From Minisyncoccota bacterium (GTDB lineage Bacteria > Patescibacteriota > Minisyncoccia > Phycocordibacterales > JABAAK01), in assembly GCA_965216295.1 (NCBI GenBank), contig OZ244141.1:365299-429298 (forward strand): a stretch of 64,000 bases of DNA, in the 5' to 3' direction. The position numbers and the translations under genes are program-made. Positions 631-20,734 of the stretch are shown here, piece after piece. The first letter of the stretch is position 1, and the number at the start of each line of letters is the position of its first letter. Below the pieces are notes generated by a model. It saw only the letters and a program-made list of their open reading frames with translations, ran no database searches and was not told the DNA's origin.

Positions 631-1332
631 TCATATCTTTCTTTTCAACACAGCCTTTCGTTCCTCATCACCCATCTTCTCTATCGCATATCTCAGTGTT
701 GTTCTCGGAATTTTATTATAGTTTTTCTCTATAAAAACTCTTACCACCTTCGCATCCTTTTTATAAACCTCCCGTAACATCCACCCAATAGCTTTATGTA
801 TTAAATCTTCCTTGTCTGAGAGTAATTGTTTAGCAATCCGTAGAAACATTGTAAATTCTCCAGCCTTTATCATTGGAAAACATGATAGGACTGATATTCT
901 CCTTTCCCACAGATCTTTTGATAGAGAGAGACGTTCTATCTTCTTTCTTTCGCCTATGTGCCCTTTTATGTACTCTCCTATAACATTTGGAACGGTGACA
1001 TCAACAATATCCCAATTGTTCACATATTTGAGATTCTTATAGTAAAACGTATATATCTTTTTCTTCTCAGCCTCATTTGCCTGTTTATACCGATATGTCA
1101 GAATGAGAAACCCACACATCCTATACTCATGATATTTAGAGGTTATAAGTTTTAAAAGCTCAGGAGTCTTTATATCCTCATACGTCTTCGCAATATCTCG
1201 AAGTACTGGCATGGTGATACCTACAAAACTATCATGAGCAGAGTAACTTCCCTTCCCTGTTTTAAAAAATCTCTCAGAATTCTGTTTTTTCTTTTTACTA
1301 GAGTTTTTCTTTAATACTGAGAATACTGACAT
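631..1332 (-). CDS. DNA alkylation repair enzyme (AlkD/AlkC-like HEAT-repeat glycosylase family)
   Basis: The 249-aa ORF has '...FFKTGKGSYSAHDSFVGITMPVLRDIAK...LLSDKEDLIHKAIGWMLREV', typical of the DNA_alkylation family. An internal Met at ORF residue 17 is the likely true start; the ORF as called begins at 1380. Confidence 0.6.
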   Translation of the reverse strand: MSVFSVLKKNSSKKKKQNSERFFKTGKGSYSAHDSFVGITMPVLRDIAKTYEDIKTPELLKLITSKYHEYRMCGFLILTYRYKQANEAEKKKIYTFYYKNLKYVNNWDIVDVTVPNVIGEYIKGHIGERKKIERLSLSKDLWERRISVLSCFPMIKAGEFTMFLRIAKQLLSDKEDLIHKAIGWMLREVYKKDAKVVRVFIEKNYNKIPRTTLRYAIEKMGDEERKAVLKRKI

Positions 1333-1408
1333 ATAGTTATAGCAAGTATACCAAAAAACAAGTTGTATTCCACAGTGCAAAATTTATAAAAATATATATA
1401 ATTAATAT

Positions 1409-2353
1409 GTGAAGTTAATCTCTGGCGCTGCAAGCGAACATCTATCAAAAGAGGTATCGGATATTTTAAATGTATCCATGGTACCGGTCTATAACAAAAG
1501 CTTTGCAGATGGAGAATTGTATATGAAGATAGGTGAAAACATACGTGGATCAGATGTCTATATCATTCAATCCACATCACCAGATGTAAACGATAATATC
1601 ATGCATCTTTTACTGATGCTTGATGCTATTAAACGATCATCTGCAAAAAGTATAAATTTGATAATACCCTACTCTGGTTATGCAAGACAGGATAGGAAGG
1701 TAGAATCACGATCCCCCATCAGTGCACGTCTCGTCTCATCGATGATAGAGTTTGCAGGAGCAACTCGAGTAATGACTATAGACCTCCATTCAAAACAAGG
1801 TGAGGGGTTCTTCTCTGTTGCTGCTGATAACCTTTTTGCTATGCGATTCCTATACAAAGAGATAGCAAACTATGTACGAAAAAATTATGACGAAAAAGAT
1901 GTTTTAGTTGTCTCACCAGATACTGGGGGTGTTCCCCGGGCAAGAGCCTTAGGGAAGCTATTTAACTCCAGCATAGCCATAGTAGATAAAAGGAGAGATG
2001 TAGACGGCATTGCAGAGGTCATGAACGTTGTTGGTGATCCAAAAGGCAAGGTATGTATTATCATAGACGATATGATCGACTCTGGTAACACTATCATAAA
2101 GGCAGCAGAAGCATTAAAAAAAGAAGGTGCAATGGCAGTTATTGGTGCTGCAACGCACGGCCTCTTTACTGGTAATGCCTTTGAGAATATAGAAAAATCA
2201 TCTTTTAAGAAGTTCTTTATAACAAATACTATCGCTCTCAGTGATAAGATTAAGAAATCAGAGAAGATTCGAGAGATATCTGTCGCTCCTATGATTGCAG
2301 AGTGTATCCGACGTATAGAAAGGAGAGAATCTGTCTCAGAGTTGTTTGGTTAG
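1409..2353 (+). CDS. prs: Ribose-phosphate pyrophosphokinase (PRPP synthetase)
   Basis: The 314-aa protein carries Prs hallmarks: 'YSGYARQDRK', a 'VVSPDTGGV' PRPP loop, and the 'IIDDMIDSGNT' ribose-5-P binding motif. Confidence 0.9.
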   Translation: MKLISGAASEHLSKEVSDILNVSMVPVYNKSFADGELYMKIGENIRGSDVYIIQSTSPDVNDNIMHLLLMLDAIKRSSAKSINLIIPYSGYARQDRKVESRSPISARLVSSMIEFAGATRVMTIDLHSKQGEGFFSVAADNLFAMRFLYKEIANYVRKNYDEKDVLVVSPDTGGVPRARALGKLFNSSIAIVDKRRDVDGIAEVMNVVGDPKGKVCIIIDDMIDSGNTIIKAAEALKKEGAMAVIGAATHGLFTGNAFENIEKSSFKKFFITNTIALSDKIKKSEKIREISVAPMIAECIRRIERRESVSELFG

Positions 2354-2365
2354 GGTTTGAAAGTT

Positions 2366-2638
2366 TTACTGTTCGTCAGTATCCTTGTCATCGGTGTGTT
2401 TTCCTTCTAACTCTTCTTTTTCATGCTGACGTCTTTTGCCGTCATGAATATATCCTTTTTTCAATTCTTTATTCATAACATATCCTTTTTCGACTCCACG
2501 ATACTTTTTTCCATGTCCATCTCTGTCACCACATCCATGACCGATAAGAAGTCCTATCAAAAGACCTACTATAAACGCTAAAGCGAGAAAAGAGATTAAT
2601 TTATAATCCATTTTATTAAAAATTAACTTATAATCCAT
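2366..2638 (-). CDS. Small membrane-anchored His/Gly/Lys-rich hypothetical protein
   Basis: 90-aa ORF with one N-terminal TM helix and a charged HGKK/HEKEE-rich tail. The N-terminus is duplicated (MDYKLIFNK-MDYKLIS) because of a short DNA direct repeat, so the start is ambiguous (2638 or 2611). Confidence 0.35.
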   Translation of the reverse strand: MDYKLIFNKMDYKLISFLALAFIVGLLIGLLIGHGCGDRDGHGKKYRGVEKGYVMNKELKKGYIHDGKRRQHEKEELEGKHTDDKDTDEQ

Positions 2639-2705
2639 GTTATTTAGTATATCATGTTTTGAAATAGATTAATTTTATTGTATTAAATATTATTTTAATC
2701 TTAAT

Positions 2706-3827
2706 TTACGATGGCAAATCTGCAATTTCATCAAGCATGTCTGTACGAATCATTTCTACCTTAACATCTTTCTGAAATAACTTCATAAGACTTTCGTAAG
2801 ACAGAAAAGAAGTTCTATCGTATATGTCTTTAAAGCTTGGTCTATTAATTTCTCTATTAAATTTTTCATATCTTTCAGAATGAGATACTATATAAAATTT
2901 CATAGTGTTATCAGGCATTAATTTCGCAAAATCATTCAATCTAAGTAAACCAGAATATATTGTTGTTGTATTCTCAACTTCAAATGCACAGGGCATGCTA
3001 TTTCCATTAATCCATATAACATCAATATTTTTAATCACTTTTAAAACATCTTCACTGTATGCCGTAGGTAATTTGTCTATAAACGTATCCTCATTAAAAA
3101 TTTCTTCTTGTTTTTTCACACGATCTTTATCTGAACGTGGAATCCAAACGTTATAATTCCATTTCTCGGCAAGCTTTGCCAGTTTTGCCTGCATTTTAGA
3201 ATGTATCTTTTTTTCATCATCATTAAAACCACACTCATCCACCTCTTCCATCTCGTCATCTTTTTCTATGAAATCTCTATCTATTTCTTCTATGATACTT
3301 AACTCTTTCTGATCTTTTTCATTTAAGATAAATGAATCTTTATTTTGAAGCATAATATCAACCACTTTTTTTGCAATATCACTATCTATTTTTCTTAAAG
3401 AACTCTGACCAAATAGACTAGAAAAAGTATTGCTTAAAATCTGCCCCTCTGATCGATTACCTGAATATTCTGTATTATCTAAAAATTTCTGTTTTGCTCC
3501 AGAATCTTCAAGCATATTTTTTAAAGGTATAGATTTCTCCGCTTCCGAAAAATTTATAAATTTCTTACCTTCAACATCAAATCTCCATATGAAAGGGTCA
3601 TTTCTATTAACAAAATAGGGCTCTTCGTCCTTTCTAATATTTCCTTTGAATTCAAGTATCCCTATAAAACGGGAAAAATCACCACAATAGGATATTAACA
3701 AATCTCCCTTATTTAATTTGTTTTTAAGTTGATTTCTCTGTCTATTTCTTACACCAGCAATCTTTCCACCTTTTTCACAAAAAGTTTTCCATGTCTTTGG
3801 ACTAAATAAATAAAGATAGTAATTCAT
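2706..3827 (-). CDS. EVE (PUA-like) domain protein fused to a C-terminal nuclease-like domain; candidate modification-dependent (type IV-like) restriction endonuclease
   Basis: N-terminus 'YYLYLFSPKTWKTF...GVRNRQRNQLKNKLNKGDLLISYCGDFSRFIGILEF' matches the EVE consensus (W..GVRN.QA.N.L..M..GD..L.YHS......VGI.EV). An acidic linker (DEMEEVDECGFNDDE) follows. The C-terminal ~150 aa has a D...EVE-type motif (IDVIWING...CAFEVENTT) compatible with a PD-(D/E)xK-like fold. The gene is AT-rich and sits next to tRNA-Glu. Confidence 0.55.
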   Translation of the reverse strand: MNYYLYLFSPKTWKTFCEKGGKIAGVRNRQRNQLKNKLNKGDLLISYCGDFSRFIGILEFKGNIRKDEEPYFVNRNDPFIWRFDVEGKKFINFSEAEKSIPLKNMLEDSGAKQKFLDNTEYSGNRSEGQILSNTFSSLFGQSSLRKIDSDIAKKVVDIMLQNKDSFILNEKDQKELSIIEEIDRDFIEKDDEMEEVDECGFNDDEKKIHSKMQAKLAKLAEKWNYNVWIPRSDKDRVKKQEEIFNEDTFIDKLPTAYSEDVLKVIKNIDVIWINGNSMPCAFEVENTTTIYSGLLRLNDFAKLMPDNTMKFYIVSHSERYEKFNREINRPSFKDIYDRTSFLSYESLMKLFQKDVKVEMIRTDMLDEIADLPS

Positions 3828-3892
3828 ATATTCAGTATATATAAAAGGTTTAAGAATGTCTAAATCAATAAAAATACTATTAAATCTACATG

Positions 3893-3964
3893 TGACCCCA
3901 CGGGGAATCGAACCCCGGTTTCAGCCGTGAAAGGGCTGCGTCCTAGCCGCTAGACGATGGGGCC
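3893..3964 (-). tRNA. tRNA-Glu (anticodon TTC)
   Basis: Minus-strand sequence GGCCCCATCGTCTAGCGGCTAGGACGCAGCCCTTTCACGGCTG...GGTTCGATTCCCCGTGGGGTCA. The acceptor stem pairs over 7 bp (one GU), the anticodon loop is CTTTCAC, and the T-loop is TTCGATT. Confidence 0.85.
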
Positions 3965-3999
3965 TAGAGAACTGTTAAACCGATGTGAATATAACATGT

Positions 4000-4698
4000 T
4001 TACGCAAATCCACCAAACAAGGAACCGATAAAGAAAGCAATAGAACCGGCAATAGCACCAACGAAAGTAACTTCAACAATCGCAAGTGCAATGTTCTCTT
4101 TTGTTAAGTACCCCCGGATAAAGCCAAGTGTCATTAGAGCAATGGTAAACCCGAGTACTGAATAGGAGAATGCTTGTTCAGGAGATGAGAGAAGTATAAA
4201 TGGAATAATAGGAATAGCACCAAAGAGGATAAAGGCAAAGAAAGTTGCTGTTCCCCGAATACCAGGTCGTTCATGAGTTTGACTTTGCATATCTAATTTA
4301 TAACGCATAAGAAAATCAACCCAGTACGCTTCGTTATGTTTAAACAGAGAAACTAATGATCGTGCATCTTCAGAAGAAAAACCACGTTCTTCTAAGACTT
4401 CAAGAGTAATGGCAACGGCTTCTTCCCGAGAATTTCGTAAGAGTTCCCTTTCTTCCCTCTCACGGACAGTGTAGAGTTTTTTTGCACTTCGAAGAGAGAG
4501 GAAATTTCCTAATCCCATAGAAACACCATCAGCAAAGAGGTTAGCAAAGCCAAAAAGGAGTACAAGGAAGATAGAGAACGTTCCTGTTGTATCGGTTGCA
4601 AAGCTAGCACCGGAGAATCCTGAAACAATGGCAAAGGTGGTGATAATACCATCGATACCTCCGTAGATAATTTCTCTAATATAGACAACAAAAGACAT
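4000..4698 (-). CDS. VIT1/CCC1-family membrane protein (putative Fe/Mn transporter, DUF125)
   Basis: 'EIIYGGIDGIITTFAIVSGFSGA' is a typical VIT-family N-terminal motif. Several TM segments and a central cytoplasmic acidic helix are present. Confidence 0.65.
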   Translation of the reverse strand: MSFVVYIREIIYGGIDGIITTFAIVSGFSGASFATDTTGTFSIFLVLLFGFANLFADGVSMGLGNFLSLRSAKKLYTVREREERELLRNSREEAVAITLEVLEERGFSSEDARSLVSLFKHNEAYWVDFLMRYKLDMQSQTHERPGIRGTATFFAFILFGAIPIIPFILLSSPEQAFSYSVLGFTIALMTLGFIRGYLTKENIALAIVEVTFVGAIAGSIAFFIGSLFGGFA

Positions 4699-13488: not shown

Positions 13489-13572
13489 GCCGAGGTGGCG
13501 AAATTGGTAGACGCGTTGCGTTCAGAGCGCAATGGGAGTAATCCCGTGGAGGTTCAAGTCCTCTCCTCGGCA
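13489..13572 (+). tRNA. tRNA-Leu (anticodon CAG), class II with long variable arm
   Basis: GCCGAGGTGGCGAAATTGGTAGACGCGTTGCGTTCAGAGCGCAATGGGAGTAATCCCGTGGAGGTTCAAGTCCTCTCCTCGGCA. The acceptor pairs over 7 bp, the anticodon loop is TTCAGAG, and the variable arm is TGGGAGTAATCCCGTG. Confidence 0.85.
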
Positions 13573-13706
13573 CTAAAACAAATTTGATATCAAATAGTAT
13601 TTTTTGTTCTGTTTTCATTAAATTTTTATTATGATTGAATTTAGTCATATTTGCTCTTGATAACCATAGTGTATATAGAGTAAGATATATGTGCAATATA
13701 TAAAGT

Positions 13707-15449
13707 GTGAAAATTAGCATGACAGATATAAATCTACATCAAAAACAAAAAGGAGATAGAAATGAGTGTACTCGTCTAATTCTTGATTCGAGAACAAAAA
13801 ATAAGATAATAGTTGCTGGTCCAGGAACTGGCAAGAGCTTTACATTTCAAGAACTTTTGAAAACTAAAGGTAGAAACGGTCTCGCGCTTACTTTTACCAA
13901 TAATCTGGCACAAGATTTGGAAAAAGATCTTGGAACTTTGGCGAAATCATACACTTTTCACGGCTATTGTAAAAAACTTCTTCACAGAATTTCTGTAGAC
14001 GGTATAGATACTGATTTTCTTTATTATCCGAAGCTTTCTAAATTGATAAAATCGGACGCGATAATTATTGGAAATACTCTTGAAAAATTTGACGAAGCGT
14101 TTCATATACTAGCTAGGGACAGTCGCATTGAATTTTATCTTGAATGTGCAAATTACTATAACGCTGTTGGGCATAATGATGCCGTTTACCGTGTCCTCAA
14201 ATATTTTCAAACAAAAAAAGATTCTCTACCTTCATTCTCTCAAATAGTGGTGGACGAATATCAAGATTTCAATCAGCTCGAAGTTGCATTTATTGATGAA
14301 TTGGCAAAGACTAGCCCGATATTGATTGTTGGAGATGATGATCAAGCAATTTATAATTTTAAAAATGCATCGCCCGATCATATTCGTACTAAGTTCATTC
14401 ATGCAGATTTTGAAAAATTTGAACTACCTTATTGTAGTCGTTGCACAGAAGTAATTATTAGTTCTGTTCACGATGTTATAAAAAAAGCGAAAAGCATTGG
14501 GAAATTACAAAACAGAATTGAGAAAAATTATATTTGCTTTTTGCCCGACAAGGAAACTGATAACATAAAACATCCTCAAATTATTCACGCAAAATGTTCA
14601 GTACAAAATTCTCGTACACCTTATATTTCAAAATTTATAGAGCAGGAAATTAAAAAAATACCACAAATAGAAATTAATTGTGCGCGAGAAAAGGGTTTTC
14701 CGTGTGTTTTAATTGCTGGACCCTCACACTATACAAAACAAGTATATGACTATTTATTGGAAAATAATTTTAAAAATATTGACTATGTTGGCACAAAAAA
14801 ACAAAATGTTGAGTTTTTAGAAGGATATGAAGTTTTAATGCATAATAGGAACTCGAATCTTGGTTGGCGAATAATTTTAGAATGTTCAAGATTGACGGAT
14901 AAAACAGATATTATTAAAATGATGAACGGGTCAAAACAAAAATTAACTGATTTGCTCTCACCGGATTTTAAAGAAAAACATCTTGCTGTTGTTGCACTTC
15001 TCGCAAAACTAAAACTCAACGAAACATTGCTCGAATCAGAAATCCAAAAGTTACTTTCAGAATGTGGAAAACAAAAAATTCAGGAAATCAAGGAATTTCT
15101 AAATATTAATCTAGAAACAGAAAATGATGAGGAAACAATCGAAGACACAAATATTTCAATAAAAATTACAACAATAAGCGGTTCTAAAGGTTTATCAGCA
15201 AATTATGTTTTCCTCATTGGGATGAATAATAATGATTTTCCAAAAAACGATCAAAATCCAACAGACAATGAAATTTGCCAATTTATTGTTGGAATTACAC
15301 GAACAAGAAAAAAATGTTATTTGATATCAAATTTTCGTTTTGCAGGGGCTTCTAGAAAATCAAAATCAGTGTTCATTGATTGGATAAAAACGGAAAAAGT
15401 TGCTGAAGTAAATGTGAGTGCTAGTTTTTTCCAAAACCCTGCTCGTTAA
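13707..15449 (+). CDS. Minimal UvrD/Rep-like superfamily 1 DNA helicase
   Basis: 580 aa with these SF1 motifs: Walker A 'VAGPGTGKSFT', motif Ia 'TFTNNLAQDL', motif II 'VVDEYQDFN', motif III 'VGDDDQAIYNFKNA', motif V 'TISGSKGLSANYVFLIG', motif VI 'IVGITRTRKK'. No accessory nuclease domain is visible. Very AT-rich. It immediately follows tRNA-Leu. Confidence 0.7.
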   Translation: MKISMTDINLHQKQKGDRNECTRLILDSRTKNKIIVAGPGTGKSFTFQELLKTKGRNGLALTFTNNLAQDLEKDLGTLAKSYTFHGYCKKLLHRISVDGIDTDFLYYPKLSKLIKSDAIIIGNTLEKFDEAFHILARDSRIEFYLECANYYNAVGHNDAVYRVLKYFQTKKDSLPSFSQIVVDEYQDFNQLEVAFIDELAKTSPILIVGDDDQAIYNFKNASPDHIRTKFIHADFEKFELPYCSRCTEVIISSVHDVIKKAKSIGKLQNRIEKNYICFLPDKETDNIKHPQIIHAKCSVQNSRTPYISKFIEQEIKKIPQIEINCAREKGFPCVLIAGPSHYTKQVYDYLLENNFKNIDYVGTKKQNVEFLEGYEVLMHNRNSNLGWRIILECSRLTDKTDIIKMMNGSKQKLTDLLSPDFKEKHLAVVALLAKLKLNETLLESEIQKLLSECGKQKIQEIKEFLNINLETENDEETIEDTNISIKITTISGSKGLSANYVFLIGMNNNDFPKNDQNPTDNEICQFIVGITRTRKKCYLISNFRFAGASRKSKSVFIDWIKTEKVAEVNVSASFFQNPAR

Positions 15450-15543
15450 ATTTTTGCTTATTCAAAGTAAATCTTCACGAAGTGTATAACTATAGCACCA
15501 ATAAAACACGTATCGCATTTATTTTGTTATACTACAGCAACCT

Positions 15544-15771
15544 ATGACAGACGCCTCTATAAAAAAATCAAAGTATACATGTTCAAAATGTAAGCACTCA
15601 AAATATGAGTCAGGAGAAATAAGAGCAGCGGGTAGTTTTTGGACAAAAATCTTTAATATTCAAAATAAAAAATTTCTATCAATTTCGTGTAAAAAATGTG
15701 GCCATACAGAATTCTATTCTCAAGATAAAGCAAAAACCGTCGAAAACATTTTTGATTTCCTTATCGGTTAA
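15544..15771 (+). CDS. Zn-ribbon nucleic-acid-binding protein (DUF-type, CxxC...CxxC)
   Basis: 75 aa: 'YTCSKCKHSKYESGE...ISCKKCGHTEFY'. Two CxxC pairs with a C-terminal GHTEFY, typical of small predicted Zn-ribbon proteins. Confidence 0.55.
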   Translation: MTDASIKKSKYTCSKCKHSKYESGEIRAAGSFWTKIFNIQNKKFLSISCKKCGHTEFYSQDKAKTVENIFDFLIG

Positions 15772-15772
15772 G

Positions 15773-16225
15773 TTACTCTATAGTACATTCCGTATTATTC
15801 GTTGCTAGCAGACAGTAGAGACGATTGAGTTCTGTTGGATAAGGATATTCATACCCAATCACCTTATGCGGTATGGTACATGTTTTCTGTTTTACTGTTT
15901 CTAAACCACACCACCGATTATCATCATAGCCACAAGCAATAACTGCTTTATCAATATGTGCGAAATACCATGTGTAAACAACTGGAATAATCTCAGGTGG
16001 TGTGTTTGGGAGGAGACAACTCGCAGCAGCAATATCTTTATTTTCTGTTCGTGTTGGTAGTGGCACCTCTTGTTTTTCTCCATTAACAGTCGTCACTGTT
16101 GTTTTTGGTGGTGTCATATCCGTTATTAAAACGGTAATCACAACAAGAATAACAATAAGGGAGATACCAATGAGAAAACGAATAGTGTTTTGATGCATAT
16201 AATCTATCGCTGTATCGTACCACAA
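15773..16225 (-). CDS. Membrane-anchored Cys-containing hypothetical secreted protein
   Basis: 150 aa. N-terminal TM (IRFLIGISLIVILVVITVLI) and an extracellular part with 5 Cys. No motif recognised. Confidence 0.4.
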   Translation of the reverse strand: MWYDTAIDYMHQNTIRFLIGISLIVILVVITVLITDMTPPKTTVTTVNGEKQEVPLPTRTENKDIAAASCLLPNTPPEIIPVVYTWYFAHIDKAVIACGYDDNRWCGLETVKQKTCTIPHKVIGYEYPYPTELNRLYCLLATNNTECTIE

Positions 16226-16229
16226 AGGA

Positions 16230-16634
16230 TTACTCTTTTTCCTTTTCTTCTAGGTTAAGAGCGCATGAATTGATACAGTACCGCTGCCCTGTTGGTGTAT
16301 CAGGAGCATCTGGAAAGACATGCCCTAAATGTGCCCCACAGCGTTTACAGAGCACTTCAGTTCTCGTCGTACCAAGAGAGCTATCTACCCGTGTACCAAC
16401 ATTCTCTGCTTGTGCGATATCATAGAAACTTGGCCAACCAGAGTATGAATCAAACTTTGTTTTTGAATCAAAAAGTTCTGCATTACACACAGCACATCGA
16501 TACATACCATCCGCCTTTGTTTTGTAATATTTCCCACTAAATGCCGCTTCGGTACCCTGCTCTTGTGTTACCCGATATGTTTCATCATCTAATCGCTCTC
16601 GCAACTCTTCTTCAGAAAATGATTGCTGTTCCAT
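16230..16634 (-). CDS. msrB: Peptide methionine sulfoxide reductase MsrB
   Basis: Two CxxC pairs (CAVCNAEL / CKRCGAHLGHVF) and the 'RYCINSCAL' catalytic Cys motif of SelR/MsrB. Confidence 0.9.
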   Translation of the reverse strand: MEQQSFSEEELRERLDDETYRVTQEQGTEAAFSGKYYKTKADGMYRCAVCNAELFDSKTKFDSYSGWPSFYDIAQAENVGTRVDSSLGTTRTEVLCKRCGAHLGHVFPDAPDTPTGQRYCINSCALNLEEKEKE

Positions 16635-16648
16635 AAAATCAGTATACG

Positions 16649-17113
16649 TTACCCTCCAATTGATCGTTTTTGAATGTACTGCTGATGGTAATCTTCTGCC
16701 TCGTAGAAAGTGGTTGCCTTGGTAATCTCTGTCACAATACCAGCGGGATATACTCCTTGTTCTTCTAACCTCTTTTTTTCCTCTTCAGCAATTTGTTGTT
16801 CTTCTGGAGTAGTGTAGAAAATAGCGGAGCGATACTGTGTTCCTCTATCTGGTCCCTGCATATTAGGTGTTGTTGGATCGTGGATACTCCAAAAACGTTT
16901 TACGAGATCTTGATATGTTATCTGTTCTGAGTCATAGGTTACTTCAACCGCCTCTGCATGATTTGTGGTACCACTACAGACACCCTCATAACTAGGACTT
17001 TCTGTTGATCCACCAGTGTATCCAACTCGTGTTGATACAACACCAGGAGTGGTGCGGAACTTCTCTTCTACTCCCCAGAAGCATCCCGCGGCAAATATCG
17101 CAATTCCCTGCAT
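16649..17113 (-). CDS. msrA: Peptide methionine sulfoxide reductase MsrA
   Basis: 'AIFAAGCFWGVEEKF...GVVSTRVGYTGG' is the MsrA GCFWG active-site signature. Confidence 0.9.
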   Translation of the reverse strand: MQGIAIFAAGCFWGVEEKFRTTPGVVSTRVGYTGGSTESPSYEGVCSGTTNHAEAVEVTYDSEQITYQDLVKRFWSIHDPTTPNMQGPDRGTQYRSAIFYTTPEEQQIAEEEKKRLEEQGVYPAGIVTEITKATTFYEAEDYHQQYIQKRSIGG

Positions 17114-17136
17114 AATGGTAGTATATACACTATCTC

Positions 17137-17227
17137 GGAGGGGTGCCAGAGTGGTTGAATGGGGCGGTTTCGAAAACCGCTGTCATGCTTCATCGTGTGA
17201 CCGAGGGTTCGAATCCCTCCCCCTCCG
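17137..17227 (+). tRNA. tRNA-Ser (anticodon CGA), class II
   Basis: GGAGGGGTGCCAGAGTGGTTGAATGGGGCGGTTTCGAAAACCGCTGTCATGCTTCATCGTGTGACCGAGGGTTCGAATCCCTCCCCCTCCG. Acceptor GGAGGGG/CCCCTCC, anticodon loop TTCGAAA, long variable arm. Confidence 0.85.
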
Positions 17228-17442
17228 CATTGTAACCAAATGAGGGTTCAAAGTTACACTTTGCCTTCTGCATAAGCCGTTTTTCCAAAGAGTTCTTAAC
17301 CTAGATAAATCAATTTTTCTATGTCTTCAGCTTCTTAGTATCAATGTAGCGGTAAATGGTCATAATGTTGACTTGCAGGATGTCTGTTGTGTTTTTGACT
17401 TTATAGAAATCTCTAATATTCATAAGTATATGATACTTTACA

Positions 17443-18918
17443 ATGCTTTACATAGCAAATATATTGGTGAATAATATATATGTGAGATTTTCTAAACACT
17501 TCAAACTGAATAAAACACAAACAGAGCTGGACTTCGTAGATATTCCTCTGAAAACAGATATTCCTCTTTACATAGATCCTCATGTCATTGCGACACGTGA
17601 AGATTTGCTGTCAGTCAAATGCAACAACATCGTTGTCAACTTTTTTCAAACCGTTGTTACAAAAATAAAAAATGGTGATGATGAATTTGCGAAATATATG
17701 CTGAGTAAATTGAGAGAGCCCAACCAAACACATTTTGGACTTTCCAGCAAAGAGCCGAAAGGAAGGGGGGTGGGGGGTAAACAATCAATTGACATATACA
17801 AAAAATTCAAAGAAAGTGAGGCCATAAAAACTGGATTTCTGAAAGATCTTTCAGGGACAGAACTTGTGATTGAAGGTATTGGTAATGACAAGATTTCAGA
17901 TATGACTACGAATATAATAAAAAAAGATCTTATAGAATACACACAAAAACAATGTGACACATACGGCATACCAACAGAAAATGTTCCTGCAGAATTTTAT
18001 TGGAACCCGCAGAACCAAGAGTGGGAAAATGAATATGTTCAAATCCCTGTCTATGAAAACAGGTCCATAATTTTGGTACCCAAAGTGTTTGCGAGATACC
18101 AAATTCAATACAATCACCAACAGTATTACAACAAATTTGTTTTGGAGTATCTTCAGCAAGAGCATATTGATGCTAATTCTTCATTAGTGAAGCTTCTGAA
18201 AAATGGTGAGAAAAAAGTCTATAAAAAAGATTTGAAAAATGAAGAAGAATACAAATTGTCAAAAAAATTTCTATACGAATTCTCCAACGAGCATCCAGAG
18301 GTGCTGGAACAGTATACGAACTCAGTCTCAAGGGATATCAAACCTATTACGGACACCGAGATTGAAATTCGTCATCCTGAACCAAAGAAGATTGATTATT
18401 CGGAGCTGAAAGAAAAACTGCGCGCTATTCCAACAGGCAAGAAAGATGCTAGTAACTACCACAACGTTATGGTGGGTATACTTGAAGCTATATTTTCACC
18501 AAATTTATATGCACCAGCAAAAGAGGAAAAGATACACAATGGGCGAAAATTTATTGATATTATTTTCTTGAATGGTGCAAAAAAAGGGTTTTTTAAATAT
18601 ATTACAAATAACTTCCGTTTCCCTCAAATAATTTGTGAGTGCAAAAATTACACAGAGGACCCTGCAAATCCTGCATTTGACCAGCTTTCTGGTAGATTTT
18701 CCCCTAATAGAGGACAGTTTGGATTTTTGTTAGCACGAACATTTAAGAACAAAAATAAGGCTAAGCAACGCTGTAAAGATACTGCGAATGACCACCGTGG
18801 ATTTATTATTCCTCTGGACGATGCCGACATTATGCAGCTTATAGACTGGAAAAATAAAAATGACTTCCAGAAAATTGATGATTTTCTTACAAATCAATTT
18901 AGAGAACTAATTAACTAG
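17443..18918 (+). CDS. Hypothetical protein with C-terminal Mrr-cat-like PD-(D/E)xK restriction-endonuclease domain and unrecognised ~330-aa N-terminal domain
   Basis: C-terminal 'YHNVMVGILEAIF...GRKFIDIIFLNG...FPQIICECKNY...AFDQLSGRF...GQFGFLLARTFKN' parallels the Mrr_cat pattern (E.V..LL..G...GIDII...ILIQCKRY...V.EL.G....GIIVTT.FT). No motif found in residues 1-330. Strongly AT-rich. First gene after tRNA-Ser. Confidence 0.5.
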   Translation: MLYIANILVNNIYVRFSKHFKLNKTQTELDFVDIPLKTDIPLYIDPHVIATREDLLSVKCNNIVVNFFQTVVTKIKNGDDEFAKYMLSKLREPNQTHFGLSSKEPKGRGVGGKQSIDIYKKFKESEAIKTGFLKDLSGTELVIEGIGNDKISDMTTNIIKKDLIEYTQKQCDTYGIPTENVPAEFYWNPQNQEWENEYVQIPVYENRSIILVPKVFARYQIQYNHQQYYNKFVLEYLQQEHIDANSSLVKLLKNGEKKVYKKDLKNEEEYKLSKKFLYEFSNEHPEVLEQYTNSVSRDIKPITDTEIEIRHPEPKKIDYSELKEKLRAIPTGKKDASNYHNVMVGILEAIFSPNLYAPAKEEKIHNGRKFIDIIFLNGAKKGFFKYITNNFRFPQIICECKNYTEDPANPAFDQLSGRFSPNRGQFGFLLARTFKNKNKAKQRCKDTANDHRGFIIPLDDADIMQLIDWKNKNDFQKIDDFLTNQFRELIN

Positions 18919-19050
18919 ATTGAGTGTTGCCTTCTTCGCTGTTAGACTTGAAATGAAGTAGTAGTTTGAAAAGACAATCCAATGGATTCTAATATCGTCT
19001 TACTACTCTTCGTCAAAAAAGGTGTGTTTTAGTTTATAATATAAATAGAG

Positions 19051-19605
19051 ATGGAATATAACTATGTAAAGAAAAAATGGAGTACTGTTACCTTTATATA
19101 CAGAAAGGGTGATGAGAAATATATAGATAGTCTCAAAAAAGCAATTCAGGTGATAGAAACACTATCACCAAAGTTATACAAAAAGGATGTAAAAAAAATT
19201 AAGTATATATTGATATATAAGTCTAGTAAGTTAAACACATCTCTCGGGTATAAAGAACAAGGTCTGGTAGTGATTCCAATAAAAATGCTTGATAGCAGCT
19301 CATTGCTGTGGAATGCCGGTACCCTTGTACATGAAGCAAGACATATAACCCAACCGAAGAATAAAATGTGGGATTTCTACTGGTGTGAAATGAATGCTAC
19401 AAAAGGTGAGATGGAGTTTTATTCTGACTGTGAAGATAAGTATTACTATGATTTAGTAAATCCAAAAACAAAAAGAAAAAAGTATTTTGAAGAATTGAAA
19501 AAAAGACAGAAAGAAAAGTCCACCAAAAAGAATCCATATGTGCAATTGAAAAACACAGACAAGGATTGTAAAAAAATTGATGAGATAATTAAAAACTTGA
19601 TCTAA
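19051..19605 (+). CDS. Small HExxH (gluzincin-like) putative metallopeptidase/hypothetical protein
   Basis: 184 aa, Lys-rich. 'TLVHEARHITQ' plus a downstream Glu (…WCEMNATKGEMEF) gives HExxH+E spacing typical of minimal zincins. AT-rich. Confidence 0.35.
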   Translation: MEYNYVKKKWSTVTFIYRKGDEKYIDSLKKAIQVIETLSPKLYKKDVKKIKYILIYKSSKLNTSLGYKEQGLVVIPIKMLDSSSLLWNAGTLVHEARHITQPKNKMWDFYWCEMNATKGEMEFYSDCEDKYYYDLVNPKTKRKKYFEELKKRQKEKSTKKNPYVQLKNTDKDCKKIDEIIKNLI

Positions 19606-19658
19606 GCCTAATCTTCCTTTTGCAAATAAAAAAGTATATTCTGATACAATGTACTTAA

Positions 19659-20003
19659 ATGGAAAAAGTAAATATACAAAAAGTTTTAGATGAATTAAAA
19701 GAATTTAGAGATAAAAGAGATTGGAAGCAATTTCATACACTTAAAAATCTTATCTGTGGTTTAAATGTTGAAGCTGGAGAATTGCTAGAACATGTTATAT
19801 GGGAAGATTTAAAAGAACCAACAGATAAACAAAAGAAAGAAGTAGAGAAAGAATTAGCAGATGTTTTCAATTATGTTCTATTAATAGCTGATAAATTAGA
19901 TGTTAATTTAGAAAAGATTTCTATGCAAAAAATTAAAGAAAACGATATTAAATACCCTGTTGAGAAATCAAAAGGAAATAGTAAGAAATATAATGAATTA
20001 TAA
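19659..20003 (+). CDS. MazG-like nucleotide pyrophosphohydrolase (small all-alpha NTP-PPase, YpjD-like)
   Basis: 114 aa: 'LKEFRDKRDWKQFHTLKNLICGLNVEAGELLEHVIWE...EVEKELADVFNYVLLIADKLDVNLEK'. The EAGEL and ELADV metal-binding helices are those of MazG-family NTP-PPases. Confidence 0.65.
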   Translation: MEKVNIQKVLDELKEFRDKRDWKQFHTLKNLICGLNVEAGELLEHVIWEDLKEPTDKQKKEVEKELADVFNYVLLIADKLDVNLEKISMQKIKENDIKYPVEKSKGNSKKYNEL

Positions 20004-20008
20004 ATATC

Positions 20009-20317
20009 TTAAGAGATAAGATAATTTAATCCAAATGCAATACCTAAAAAAATGAAGATAACAATACCAAGTCTTAAATGTAATCCCATAGCTTGTTTAA
20101 ACCACACCCTCCATTTATTCTTATGCTGATATAAAAATATACAAAATCCCGTAAAATCCCAAATAAATACAAACAGGAGTGGGGTTATGGCAATATATGA
20201 AATTATTGTTATGGATGATTCTATCGAAAACGAATTGTCAGGATTTAACGAGGATACAATCACTAGAGCTGCTATAGGAAAAATAAATGTACTGAACTTG
20301 ATTGTGTTATTAAACAT
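20009..20317 (-). CDS. Small polytopic membrane hypothetical protein
   Basis: 102 aa with 3 predicted TM helices. No motif. Confidence 0.35.
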   Translation of the reverse strand: MFNNTIKFSTFIFPIAALVIVSSLNPDNSFSIESSITIISYIAITPLLFVFIWDFTGFCIFLYQHKNKWRVWFKQAMGLHLRLGIVIFIFLGIAFGLNYLIS

Positions 20318-20335
20318 ATAAATATCTTAAAATTT

Positions 20336-20734
20336 TTATCCCTCAGACTTAACTTTCTCTATAATCTCTATTAAATTAACCTGTGTGCTACTTTGATCAG
20401 CAGCAACATCTTCTTTTGGCAATAGAAACTTTTCAACTTCAAGCGTGTATGTATACCCTTCCTCATAATCAAACCCAAAAATAGAACCGTAAAAGTATTC
20501 ACCATTCACAATCATACATTTTTGTGGCGCAATACCAACACAATCCACAAGCTTTGGTCCAACCGTCACGGTTTCATAAGAAACTAAATCAAACTGTACT
20601 ACTTCACCTGATTTCGTTTGTACATAGATATCATCGTTGGTAAAGTTAAATTTGTAAATTCCTAACAGTATCACAATGATAGGTATTGCAAAGAGTAATG
20701 CAGCACAGTAAATAATGATTTTTTTGATTTTCAT
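20336..20734 (-). CDS. Membrane-anchored hypothetical protein (Cys-pair, possible DUF4377-like)
   Basis: 132 aa. N-terminal TM, then 'VDCVGIAPQKCMIVNGEYFYGSIFGFDYEEGYTY'. Family call uncertain. Confidence 0.35.
   Translation of the reverse strand: MKIKKIIIYCAALLFAIPIIVILLGIYKFNFTNDDIYVQTKSGEVVQFDLVSYETVTVGPKLVDCVGIAPQKCMIVNGEYFYGSIFGFDYEEGYTYTLEVEKFLLPKEDVAADQSSTQVNLIEIIEKVKSEG

What the first reader, a model, noticed from the sequence alone, without database searches (positions are those of the whole stretch)
2706..3964. EVE-domain–nuclease fusion next to tRNA-Glu: candidate modified-DNA-dependent (type IV) restriction enzyme
The 373-aa protein opens with a textbook EVE/PUA-like module (YYLYLFSPKTWKTF...GVRNRQRNQLKNKLNKGDLLISYCGDFSRFIGILEF). 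EVE domains bind modified bases such as 5mC and 5hmC. Fusions of EVE to nucleases are established components of modification-dependent restriction. The C-terminal domain has a D...E-V-E-N pattern compatible with a PD-(D/E)xK-like nuclease, but it lacks the canonical Lys. That suggests a divergent catalytic variant or a different nuclease fold. The gene is AT-rich, solitary with no McrB-like partner, and abuts a tRNA gene.
Basis: partly seen in the sequence, partly recalled or inferred. Interest (0 to 1): 0.6.

Follow-up and report, generated by a model that had tools for sequence, protein, structure and literature searches.

The report
Stand-alone EVE-reader restriction nuclease gene
This gene encodes a two-part enzyme, a reader of chemically modified bases joined to a DNA-cutting module borrowed from a known restriction enzyme. 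It is most likely an anti-phage nuclease that cuts only modified DNA. It belongs to a large, already predicted but biochemically untested family, not to a new kind of system.

Summary
A 373-aa ORF lies at 2706..3827 on the minus strand, 64 nt downstream of tRNA-Glu (3892..3964). It is AT-rich (GC 0.298 vs 0.392 for its neighbours).

No methyltransferase lies in the 64-kb window, and 81 homologous loci share no conserved partner gene. The same nuclease module also occurs fused to Mrr_N.

Best reading: a single-protein, modification-dependent (Type IV-like) restriction endonuclease that probably cuts at a distance from the modified base. Target base and activity are untested.

The EVE-PD(D/E)XK class was catalogued in 2020, and about 830-4000 sequence clusters exist. 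It is a new member of a known kind, of moderate interest.

The parts
2706..3827 (-). Complete CDS, 373 aa (stop codon 2706-2708): EVE reader + linker + NmeDI_C nuclease
   Evidence: ORF; identical protein P0001, 732 homologues; two-domain AF2 model, pLDDT 88.8
3399..3827 (-). N-terminal EVE (PUA-superfamily) domain, aa 1-143; predicted modified-base reader
3228..3398 (-). Inter-domain linker, aa 144-200: two helices, then an acidic segment. aa 166-202 has 15 D/E out of 37 residues; aa 184-199 is predicted disordered.
   Evidence: It is the least conserved segment of the family (mean column identity 0.42).
2709..3227 (-). C-terminal NmeDI_C nuclease domain (PD-(D/E)xK fold), aa 201-373
3021..3023 (-). 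Codon GAT = D269, the 'PD' aspartate (IDVIW), at the start of the beta strand formed by aa 270-274
   Evidence: Read from the sequence; D in 120 of 120 homologues; secondary structure
2970..2981 (-). Codons GAA GTT GAG AAT = E283-V284-E285-N286. This is the '(D/E)xK' position, with Glu in place of Lys, at the end of the beta strand formed by aa 277-284.
   Evidence: Read from the sequence; E283 and E285 in 120 of 120 homologues; position 286 is H103/D11/E2/G2/N1/S1
3892..3964 (-). tRNA-Glu (UUC), immediately upstream on the same strand. It is a neighbour, not a functional part.
3834..3862 (-). Promoter-like site TAGACA-17-TATACT (10 of 12) in the 64-nt tRNA-gene spacer. The -10 hexamer ends 6 nt before the ATG. 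This is a consensus match only.
   Evidence: 7 sites found in the region, 8.9 expected by chance, so not significant on its own

Best explanation
The gene encodes a single-chain, NTP-independent, modification-dependent restriction endonuclease (Type IV in function, Type IIM/IIS-like in design).

**Shown**
- The protein has two domains.
- The N-terminal 143 aa are an EVE domain.
- The C-terminal ~170 aa are homologous to the C-terminal module of R.NmeDI. They carry an invariant D269...E283-x-E285 set at the canonical PD-(D/E)xK positions.
- No methyltransferase or other conserved partner accompanies the gene, either here or in its relatives.

**Inferred**
- The EVE domain flips a modified base of incoming (phage) DNA into a hydrophobic pocket, as in VcaM4I.
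- Two or more nuclease modules then associate, as in FokI and in tetrameric NmeDI.
- They cut both strands, Mg2+-dependently, at a roughly fixed distance (about 10-13 bp) from the modified base, possibly on both sides of symmetrically modified sites.
- Host DNA escapes because it lacks the modification.
- The low GC of the gene suggests it was acquired horizontally by this small-genome bacterium.

Which base is read (5mC, 5hmC, 6mA or a hypermodified base) is not determined.
For: **Architecture**
- AF2 gives two confident domains split by a disordered linker at aa 184-199.

**Reader domain**
- Pfam EVE passes its cut-off.
- 68 of 120 relatives match EVE.
- The family profile matches EVE structures at E=9e-12 and 5e-10.

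**Nuclease domain**
- PADLOC REase_II profile PDLC03534 matches at E=1.2e-14. The profile is 351 positions long, the same length as R.NmeDI.
- Pfam names the domain NmeDI_C.
- R.NmeDI cuts 12/7 nt on both sides of RCCGGY and is a tetramer that needs two sites (PMC2095814). It is classed as a symmetric Type IIS enzyme whose C-terminal cleavage domain has no sequence specificity (PMC4081073).
- Q213, D269, E283, E285, R296, D299 and R329 are identical in 120 of 120 homologues.
- K-to-E at the motif is a known active variant (BamHI) (PMC4081073).

**No cognate methyltransferase**
- None is found among 71 window ORFs.
- Across 81 homologous loci the commonest neighbour family occurs in 8 loci, and in only 4 of them within two genes.
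- Of 143 immediate neighbours, only 3 are methyltransferases, all Type I HsdM.
- Stand-alone occurrence is the published criterion for modification dependence (PMC11037411; PMC6765204).

**Modularity**

**Defence context of the two closest relatives with context on record**
- P0002 lies beside GmrSD, MvaI/BcnI plus a methyltransferase, and an HNH protein. P0003 lies near an N6_N4 methyltransferase plus ResIII system.

**Published classification**
- EVE-PD(D/E)XK fusions have been classed as putative Type IV enzymes (PMC7641849).
Against: - There is no biochemical or genetic test of any member of this exact architecture in the literature I could search.
- For this sequence alone, the EVE hit is marginal.
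- This copy departs from the >=80% family consensus at 39 positions. These include W106L and W135F in the EVE domain and H286N next to E285.
- I could not superpose active-site or pocket residues, because no coordinates were returned.
- EVE and YTH domains also bind RNA.
- A paralogous NmeDI_C family on plasmids sits among heavy-metal-resistance genes, not defence genes. The nuclease module by itself therefore does not prove a restriction role.
- Most homologous loci are not in recognisable defence islands.
Confidence: 0.66

Rival explanations
1. It is an orphan conventional Type II/IIS restriction endonuclease. The N-terminal domain would read an unmodified DNA sequence, as in R.NmeDI, and the protecting methyltransferase would lie elsewhere in the genome.
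For: The only characterised carrier of this nuclease module, R.NmeDI, cuts unmodified RCCGGY and pairs with a C5 methyltransferase. PGAP names the plasmid paralogues 'type II restriction endonuclease'. PADLOC files the profile under REase_II.
Against: - The N-terminal half of the NmeDI profile (positions 1-166) is not matched. It is replaced by an EVE domain.
- No methyltransferase is within 64 kb here.
- None is conserved next to any of 81 relatives spread across most bacterial phyla. That is hard to reconcile with a lethal enzyme that needs protection.
Confidence: 0.07
2. It is an RNA-directed nuclease or toxin. The EVE domain would read a modified RNA base (tRNA, rRNA or phage RNA) and the nuclease would cut RNA, acting in abortive infection or RNA quality control.
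For: EVE and YTH domains were first described as RNA binders, and the YTH m6A-RNA readers are among the best structural matches (PMC6765204). Some EVE-containing defence systems are predicted to target RNA (PMC11090510, listed). Can2 and NucC-type nucleases appear among the weaker fold matches. The gene abuts a tRNA gene.
Against: - The nuclease module is homologous to a dsDNA-cleaving restriction enzyme.
- Its nearest folds are DNA restriction nucleases.
- tRNA adjacency is seen in only 3 of 60 relatives and involves different tRNAs. That fits an integration site better than a substrate.
- No antitoxin-like partner is conserved.
Confidence: 0.08
3. It is a DNA-repair or damage-sensing endonuclease. 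The EVE domain would recognise a damaged or alkylated base in the host's own DNA and the nuclease would nick nearby.
For: A DNA alkylation repair gene lies 1.3 kb away. NucS/EndoMS is among the fold matches. Many relatives sit among housekeeping genes.
Against: - The alkylation-repair gene is not adjacent, and it is not conserved next to relatives.
- Patchy distribution, low GC, and integrases or transposases beside some copies point to a mobile accessory gene, not a core repair function.
- The module is also fused to Mrr_N.
Confidence: 0.06
4. In this genome the gene is a decaying, non-functional remnant of such an enzyme.
For: This copy is the most divergent branch: about 30-35% identical to most of the family, with 39 departures from the >=80% consensus, including W106L, W135F and H286N. 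Three of 81 relatives are split into two ORFs.
Against: - The ORF is full length with no frameshift.
- All 21 family-invariant residues are retained.
- Three relatives at 47-52% identity share the same departures, which indicates a maintained subfamily.
- AF2 folds both domains with high confidence.
Confidence: 0.05

Closest known systems
EVE-PD(D/E)XK class of predicted Type IV restriction endonucleases (Bell, Wolf & Koonin 2020, PMC7641849)
   Same: Same core architecture (EVE reader plus PD-(D/E)xK nuclease) and the same predicted role. This gene is a member of that catalogued class.
   Different: The class is a bioinformatic grouping of several unrelated PD-(D/E)xK nucleases. Here the nuclease is specifically the NmeDI_C type. 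I found no experimental work on this sub-architecture.
R.NmeDI of Neisseria meningitidis (symmetric Type IIS restriction enzyme; Pfam NmeDI_C)
   Same: The C-terminal cleavage module is homologous (PADLOC profile E=1.2e-14 over aa 198-359; Pfam PF27126). By inference it shares cutting at a distance and oligomer-dependent cleavage.
   Different: NmeDI's N-terminal half reads unmodified RCCGGY and is not matched here. NmeDI overlaps its cognate C5 methyltransferase gene; this gene has none.
VcaM4I / TspA15I / CmeDI (EVE-HNH modification-dependent endonucleases)
   Different: Their nuclease is HNH, not PD-(D/E)xK. VcaM4I's cytosine-N4-contacting E15 seems to correspond to a near-invariant Phe (F16) here. 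That correspondence comes from position counting only and was not tested by superposition.
MspJI / AspBHI family (SRA-like reader plus PD-(D/E)xK; Type IIM/IV)
   Same: Same design logic: a PUA-superfamily base-flipping reader fused to a PD-(D/E)xK domain. From my own knowledge, these enzymes cut at a fixed distance from the modified base and act as tetramers.
   Different: The nuclease family differs (D...QxK, from my own knowledge). No sequence match to this protein appeared in the Pfam, PADLOC or PDB searches.
YenY4I (EVE-DUF3427-PD-(D/E)XK; Lutz et al. 2019, PMC6765204)
   Same: It is the one experimentally tested enzyme that combines a PUA/EVE-type domain with a PD-(D/E)xK nuclease. It prefers 5mC/5hmC DNA.
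   Different: It has an extra DUF3427 domain between reader and nuclease. No DUF3427 is detected here.
FokI / BspD6I cleavage domains and Mrr
   Different: There is no detectable sequence similarity to FokI or BspD6I. Mrr's own catalytic domain belongs to a different PD-(D/E)xK family.

Membership tests
EVE domain (Pfam PF01878, PUA superfamily) | Sequence match to the family HMM above the curated cut-off | tested here: met
   24.5 bits vs 23, E=2.9e-5, aa 2-108. This is marginal for the single sequence. 68 of 120 relatives match at E<=0.01. The family profile matches EVE proteins 2p5d and 1wmm at E=9.4e-12 and 5.2e-10.
EVE domain (Pfam PF01878, PUA superfamily) | PUA-like pseudobarrel fold superposable on solved EVE domains | tested here: met
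EVE domain (Pfam PF01878, PUA superfamily) | Conserved pocket for a flipped modified base (VcaM4I: T11, E15, P24, W82, Y130) | tested here: inconclusive
   Near-invariant T12, F16, G25, F83 and W135 (F in this copy) lie at nearly the same sequence positions. No structural superposition or coordinates were available, so the correspondence is unverified.
PD-(D/E)xK nuclease superfamily | Restriction-endonuclease-like alpha/beta core | tested here: met
PD-(D/E)xK nuclease superfamily | Acidic residue at the start of one core strand and (D/E)-x-K on the next strand | tested here: inconclusive
   D269 precedes strand 270-274. E283-x-E285 ends strand 277-284. All three are invariant. The Lys itself is absent (Glu), a documented active variant as in BamHI (PMC4081073). 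Three-dimensional geometry was not checked.
NmeDI_C (Pfam PF27126) / R.NmeDI family | Sequence match to the C-terminal domain profile | tested here: met
   PF27126 is precomputed for the identical protein P0001 and for all 120 listed relatives. PADLOC PDLC03534 matches at E=1.2e-14, profile positions 167-332 of 351. PF27126 is not in the local Pfam copy, so I could not rescore it. Equating PDLC03534 with NmeDI rests on its 351-position length and on the Pfam name.
NmeDI_C (Pfam PF27126) / R.NmeDI family | Full-length orthology with R.NmeDI: NmeDI-type N-terminal recognition domain and an adjacent cognate C5 methyltransferase | tested here: not met
   Profile positions 1-166 are unmatched. There is no methyltransferase in the window or beside relatives. 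The protein therefore shares a domain with R.NmeDI but is not an NmeDI orthologue.
Type IV (modification-dependent) restriction endonucleases | A modification-reader domain and a nuclease in one system | tested here: met
   EVE plus NmeDI_C in one polypeptide
Type IV (modification-dependent) restriction endonucleases | No cognate protecting methyltransferase | tested here: met
   0 of 71 window ORFs match a methyltransferase model at E<=1e-8. There is no conserved neighbour in 81 loci. Only 3 of 143 immediate neighbours are methyltransferases, all Type I HsdM.
Type IV (modification-dependent) restriction endonucleases | Cleaves modified but not unmodified DNA, and restricts modified phage | not testable with these tools
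   This needs enzyme assays and phage plating. I found no published data for this architecture.
McrBC-type Type IV systems | McrB-like GTPase/AAA+ translocase partner and a separate McrC nuclease | tested here: not met
   The immediate neighbours are prs, a 90-aa ORF, tRNA-Glu and a VIT-family gene. No McrB-named PADLOC model matched any window ORF.

The most novel reading that the evidence does not exclude
The EVE-NmeDI_C family would be a widespread class of modification-dependent 'excision' enzymes. Like NmeDI, they would cut on both sides of the recognised site at a fixed distance. Their EVE pocket (Phe where VcaM4I has the cytosine-contacting Glu) would read a base other than 5mC/5hmC, such as 6mA or a hypermodified phage base. 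That would give both a new specificity class of Type IV enzymes and a possible tool for mapping that modification at base resolution.
Probability: 0.2. Interest if true: 0.6.

Novelty: new member of a known kind. Interest (0 to 1): 0.35.

Why it matters
If the prediction holds, this is one more stand-alone Type IV enzyme. Its value is practical rather than conceptual.

- **It is a large untested family.** It has about 830 clusters at E<=1e-30 and about 4000 at E<=1e-3 at 50% identity. It occurs in at least 555 species-level genomes across most bacterial phyla and one archaeon. No member of this architecture appears to have been characterised.
- **Fixed-distance cutting would be useful.** The nuclease module comes from an enzyme that cuts at a fixed distance on both sides of its site. 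Members could therefore serve, like MspJI or AbaSI, as reagents for mapping a DNA modification.
- **It shows domain shuffling.** One cleavage module is paired with a sequence reader (NmeDI), with EVE, with Mrr_N and with other N-terminal domains.
- **Its host is unusual.** The gene sits in what looks like a very small genome (a 511,782-bp contig). This suggests that such organisms may still keep a single-gene barrier against modified phage DNA.

Tried and rejected
- **att-site test.** I looked for direct repeats of the tRNA-Glu 3' end around the gene (window 2200-4100). Only short AT-rich chance repeats turned up, so integration at the tRNA is not demonstrated.
- **Empty-site test.** A metagenome scan with the neighbouring Prs protein found no close relative (best 48-51% identity).
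- **The look-up of encoding contigs for the identical protein P0001.** Nothing is on record.
- **The listing of cluster members.** It returned no source names.
- **NCBIfam and single-sequence PDB searches.** No hits.
- **Phage collection.** No match.
- **afdb50 fold library.** Unavailable.
- **Leads checked and dismissed.**
  - The enterococcal plasmid 'TIV-RE' is GmrSD-like and unrelated.
  - END nucleases are PLD-iEndoIII fusions and unrelated.
- **Plasmid paralogue N-terminal domain.** A GLGPAxAN stretch looked like a helix-hairpin-helix motif. A profile search of PDB sequences returned only spurious coronavirus-spike coiled-coil matches, and Pfam found nothing. The idea is untested.
- **Apparent tandem copies in three loci.** These are single genes split into two ORFs.
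- **Promoter scan.** A good -35/-10 match lies in the tRNA-gene spacer, but the region has no more such matches than shuffled sequence.
Full report
**1. Observation**

The window holds a 373-aa ORF at 2706..3827 on the minus strand. tRNA-Glu(UUC) lies at 3892..3964 on the same strand, so the gene starts 64 nt after the tRNA's 3' end.

The ORF is a real gene. An identical protein is on record on a 511,782-bp contig. There are 732 homologues at E<=1e-3, nearly all 365-390 aa long. The nearest three are 47-52% identical and the rest about 30-35%.

Its GC content is 0.298, against a mean of 0.392 (sd 0.038) for the other 55 ORFs of the window. That is z=-2.5, third lowest of 56. GC3 is 0.227 against 0.305. 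Only the word 'textbook' is too strong for the EVE match of this single sequence.

**2. N-terminal domain**

- Pfam EVE (PF01878) scores 24.5 bits against a cut-off of 23 (E=2.9e-5, aa 2-108).
- At family level the assignment is solid. 68 of 120 relatives match EVE at E<=0.01.
- A profile of the 120 sequences matches the archaeal EVE proteins MJECL36 (2p5d, E=9.4e-12) and PH1033 (1wmm, E=5.2e-10) across aa 1-143.
- An AlphaFold2 model built on the 120-sequence alignment has mean pLDDT 88.8. It shows two domains separated by a disordered stretch at aa 184-199.
- Foldseek against the PDB returns EVE proteins first (TM 0.72-0.74), then YTH domains and the EVE-HNH enzyme VcaM4I.
- F8, R53 and R82 are invariant. 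Y3, T12, F16, G25, D42, Y47, F83 and W135 are near-invariant.

In VcaM4I the flipped 5mC/5hmC is held by P24, W82 and Y130 and is read by T11 and E15 (PMC7897488). T12, G25, F83 and W135 fall at almost the same positions here, and F16 stands where E15 would be. This correspondence comes from position counting only. I could not superpose structures, so the base specificity remains open.

**3. C-terminal domain**

- The identical database protein and all listed relatives carry the precomputed Pfam family PF27126. Searches give its name as NmeDI_C. That family is newer than the local Pfam copy, which explains its absence.
- PADLOC's REase_II profile PDLC03534 matches aa 198-359 at E=1.2e-14, through profile positions 167-332 of 351. 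The profile is 351 positions long, the same length as R.NmeDI.
- R.NmeDI recognises RCCGGY and cuts 12/7 nt away on both sides. It is a tetramer, needs two sites, and overlaps its cognate C5-methyltransferase gene (PMC2095814).
- The Type II review classes it as a 'symmetric Type IIS enzyme' with an N-terminal recognition domain, a linker and a C-terminal cleavage domain without sequence specificity (PMC4081073).
- A model of aa 196-373 alone has pLDDT 90.3 and pTM 0.87.
- D269 sits just before strand 270-274, and E283-V-E285 ends strand 277-284. These are the canonical places for PD and (D/E)xK.
- Q213, D269, E283, E285, R296, D299 and R329 are identical in 120 of 120 sequences. Position 286 varies (H103, D11, E2, G2, N1, S1), and this protein is the single Asn.

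Replacement of the motif Lys by Glu is a documented active variant (BamHI). Recruitment of catalytic residues from elsewhere is known for BspD6I (PMC4081073).

**4. Context**

- The immediate neighbours are housekeeping genes: a DNA-alkylation-repair protein, PRPP synthetase, a 90-aa ORF with no Pfam match that looks membrane-spanning by eye, tRNA-Glu, a VIT-family protein and a PdaC-like protein.
- None of the window's 71 ORFs matches a PADLOC methyltransferase model at E<=1e-8.
They span most bacterial phyla, two candidate-phyla-radiation lineages (Saccharibacteria, Kerfeldbacteria) and one archaeon.
- I called ORFs in 81 loci and clustered all neighbours. The largest neighbour family occurs in 8 loci, and in only 4 within two genes.
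- Of 143 immediate neighbours, three are Type I HsdM methyltransferases. No other DNA-methyltransferase Pfam family appears among the 25 most frequent families shown.
- Pfam-annotated contexts of six relatives show varied surroundings, with integrases or transposases in some.
- The two closest relatives whose context is on record lie in or near defence clusters: GmrSD, MvaI/BcnI plus a methyltransferase and an HNH protein for P0002, and an N6_N4 methyltransferase plus ResIII system for P0003.

Stand-alone occurrence without a methyltransferase is the criterion used in the field to infer modification dependence (PMC11037411; PMC6765204).

**5. Modularity**

A profile search of 1.84 billion representatives found 4032 clusters at E<=1e-3, 2470 at 1e-10 and 827 at 1e-30.

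Many strong hits share only the linker and nuclease (profile positions about 160-369) and have other N-termini:

- P0194 carries Mrr_N (E=2.2e-30). Its nuclease is 35% identical to this one.
- P0199 carries homing-endonuclease-associated repeats.
- Five of the ten I sampled have no Pfam match; two more show only a sub-threshold EVE match.

All 176 plasmid matches cover only the nuclease module. The NmeDI_C module is therefore a shuffled cleavage cassette, joined here to a modified-base reader.

**6. Mechanism proposed**

*Shown:*
- The two-domain architecture.
- The identity of both domains.
- The invariant acidic triad.
- The absence of a partner or methyltransferase.

*Inferred from the characterised relatives:*
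- The EVE domain flips a modified base of foreign DNA into its pocket.
- Nuclease modules from two or more protomers pair, as in FokI and NmeDI.
- They cut both strands with Mg2+ at about 10-13 bp from the base, possibly on both sides of symmetrically modified sites.
- The host is spared because it lacks the modification.
- The acidic, partly disordered linker (15 D/E in 37 residues) may gate the nuclease, as the linker helix does in VcaM4I.

I put 0.66 on this overall.

The rivals each get 0.05-0.08:
- An orphan conventional Type II enzyme.
- An RNA-directed nuclease or toxin.
- A damage-sensing repair nuclease.
- A decaying copy.

**7. tRNA and horizontal transfer**

No att-like repeat of the tRNA end flanks the gene. 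No close relative of the host was found for an empty-site comparison.

Among 60 homologous loci, three (L018, L035, L047) have a same-strand tRNA within 400 nt upstream, each a different tRNA. The 18 tRNAs in about 720 kb of these loci would predict roughly 0.3-0.6 such cases (my arithmetic). This is a weak hint of tRNA-linked insertion. Low GC is the better evidence of foreign origin.

**8. Comparison and novelty**

Bell, Wolf and Koonin (2020) already listed EVE-PD(D/E)XK fusions as putative Type IV enzymes. Lutz et al. (2019) tested EVE-HNH enzymes and one EVE-DUF3427-PD-(D/E)XK enzyme. Pfam now has NmeDI_C.

I found no experimental work on an EVE-NmeDI_C protein. The gene shares a domain with R.NmeDI but is not its orthologue, because the N-terminal domain and the methyltransferase are both missing. 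It is not McrBC-type.

Verdict: a new member of a known, predicted kind, of moderate interest (0.35). Its main value is as an untested and very widespread candidate enzyme family.

**9. Caveats**

- The EVE score for this sequence is marginal.
- This copy departs from the family consensus at 39 well-conserved positions, including W106L, W135F and H286N.
- There was no check of three-dimensional active-site geometry.
- Paralogous NmeDI_C proteins on plasmids sit among metal-resistance genes, not defence genes.

Noticed in passing
L083:4434-5717, L084:2811-4118, L085:2757-4022, L086:2736-4001 (plasmids of Enterococcus, Sphingomonas, Cupriavidus, Deinococcus): A paralogous family of about 420-435 aa carries the same NmeDI_C nuclease module (motif AFEVE[K/H][S/T]TS) behind an unrelated, highly conserved N-terminal domain with no Pfam match. 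In 4 of 4 regions inspected it has no methyltransferase beside it and sits among copper and heavy-metal resistance genes (P-type ATPase, DUF2933, CopC/CopD, CopY-type regulator, CzcE). 176 plasmid records match. PGAP calls it 'type II restriction endonuclease'.
   Followed up: partly
P0194, P0199 and about 40 other hits: The linker-plus-nuclease module of this family, at very high similarity, is fused to other N-terminal domains: Mrr_N (P0194, E=2e-30), homing-endonuclease-associated repeats (P0199), and several domains of about 110-280 aa with no Pfam match.
   Followed up: partly
window 13489-20734: This is a second low-GC stretch (ORF GC 0.24-0.35). It starts right after tRNA-Leu (13489-13573) and contains tRNA-Ser (17137-17228). 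It holds a UvrD-family helicase (13707-15449), presumably the ORF behind the window's many GajB-model matches (PADLOC did not say which ORF). No GajA-like gene was noticed among its neighbours, but they were not individually scanned. It also holds two ORFs with no Pfam match (17443-18918, 19051-19605) and a MazG-like pyrophosphatase (19659-20003, GC 0.243). It is possibly another acquired island.
   Followed up: no
window 2595-2644 (minus-strand ORF 2366-2638): The 90-aa ORF downstream of the nuclease gene starts with a 27-nt tandem duplication that encodes MDYKLI twice (repeat D3, 91% identical). The ORF has no Pfam match and no counterpart beside relatives of the nuclease.
   Followed up: partly
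L002:3482-10782: The contig carrying the 49%-identical relative P0002 holds a dense defence cluster around it: GmrSD_N and GmrSD_C as separate genes, an MvaI/BcnI-type endonuclease with N6_N4 methyltransferase fragments, and an HNH protein.
   Followed up: no
L005:6001-7056, L056:6001-7122, L058:6001-7113: In 3 of 81 homologous loci the gene is split into two consecutive ORFs. These are possible pseudogenes or assembly frameshifts.
   Followed up: no
window 3828-3891: The best promoter-like site (TAGACA-17-TATACT) ends 6 nt before the ATG, and no Shine-Dalgarno-like sequence is visible. If the site is used, the mRNA would be leaderless or nearly so.
   Followed up: no
L018:5654-5740, L035:5535-5612, L047:5633-5723: Three relatives in unrelated bacteria also have a same-strand tRNA gene (Leu, Val, Ser) within 400 nt upstream of the nuclease gene, as in the window.
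   Followed up: partly
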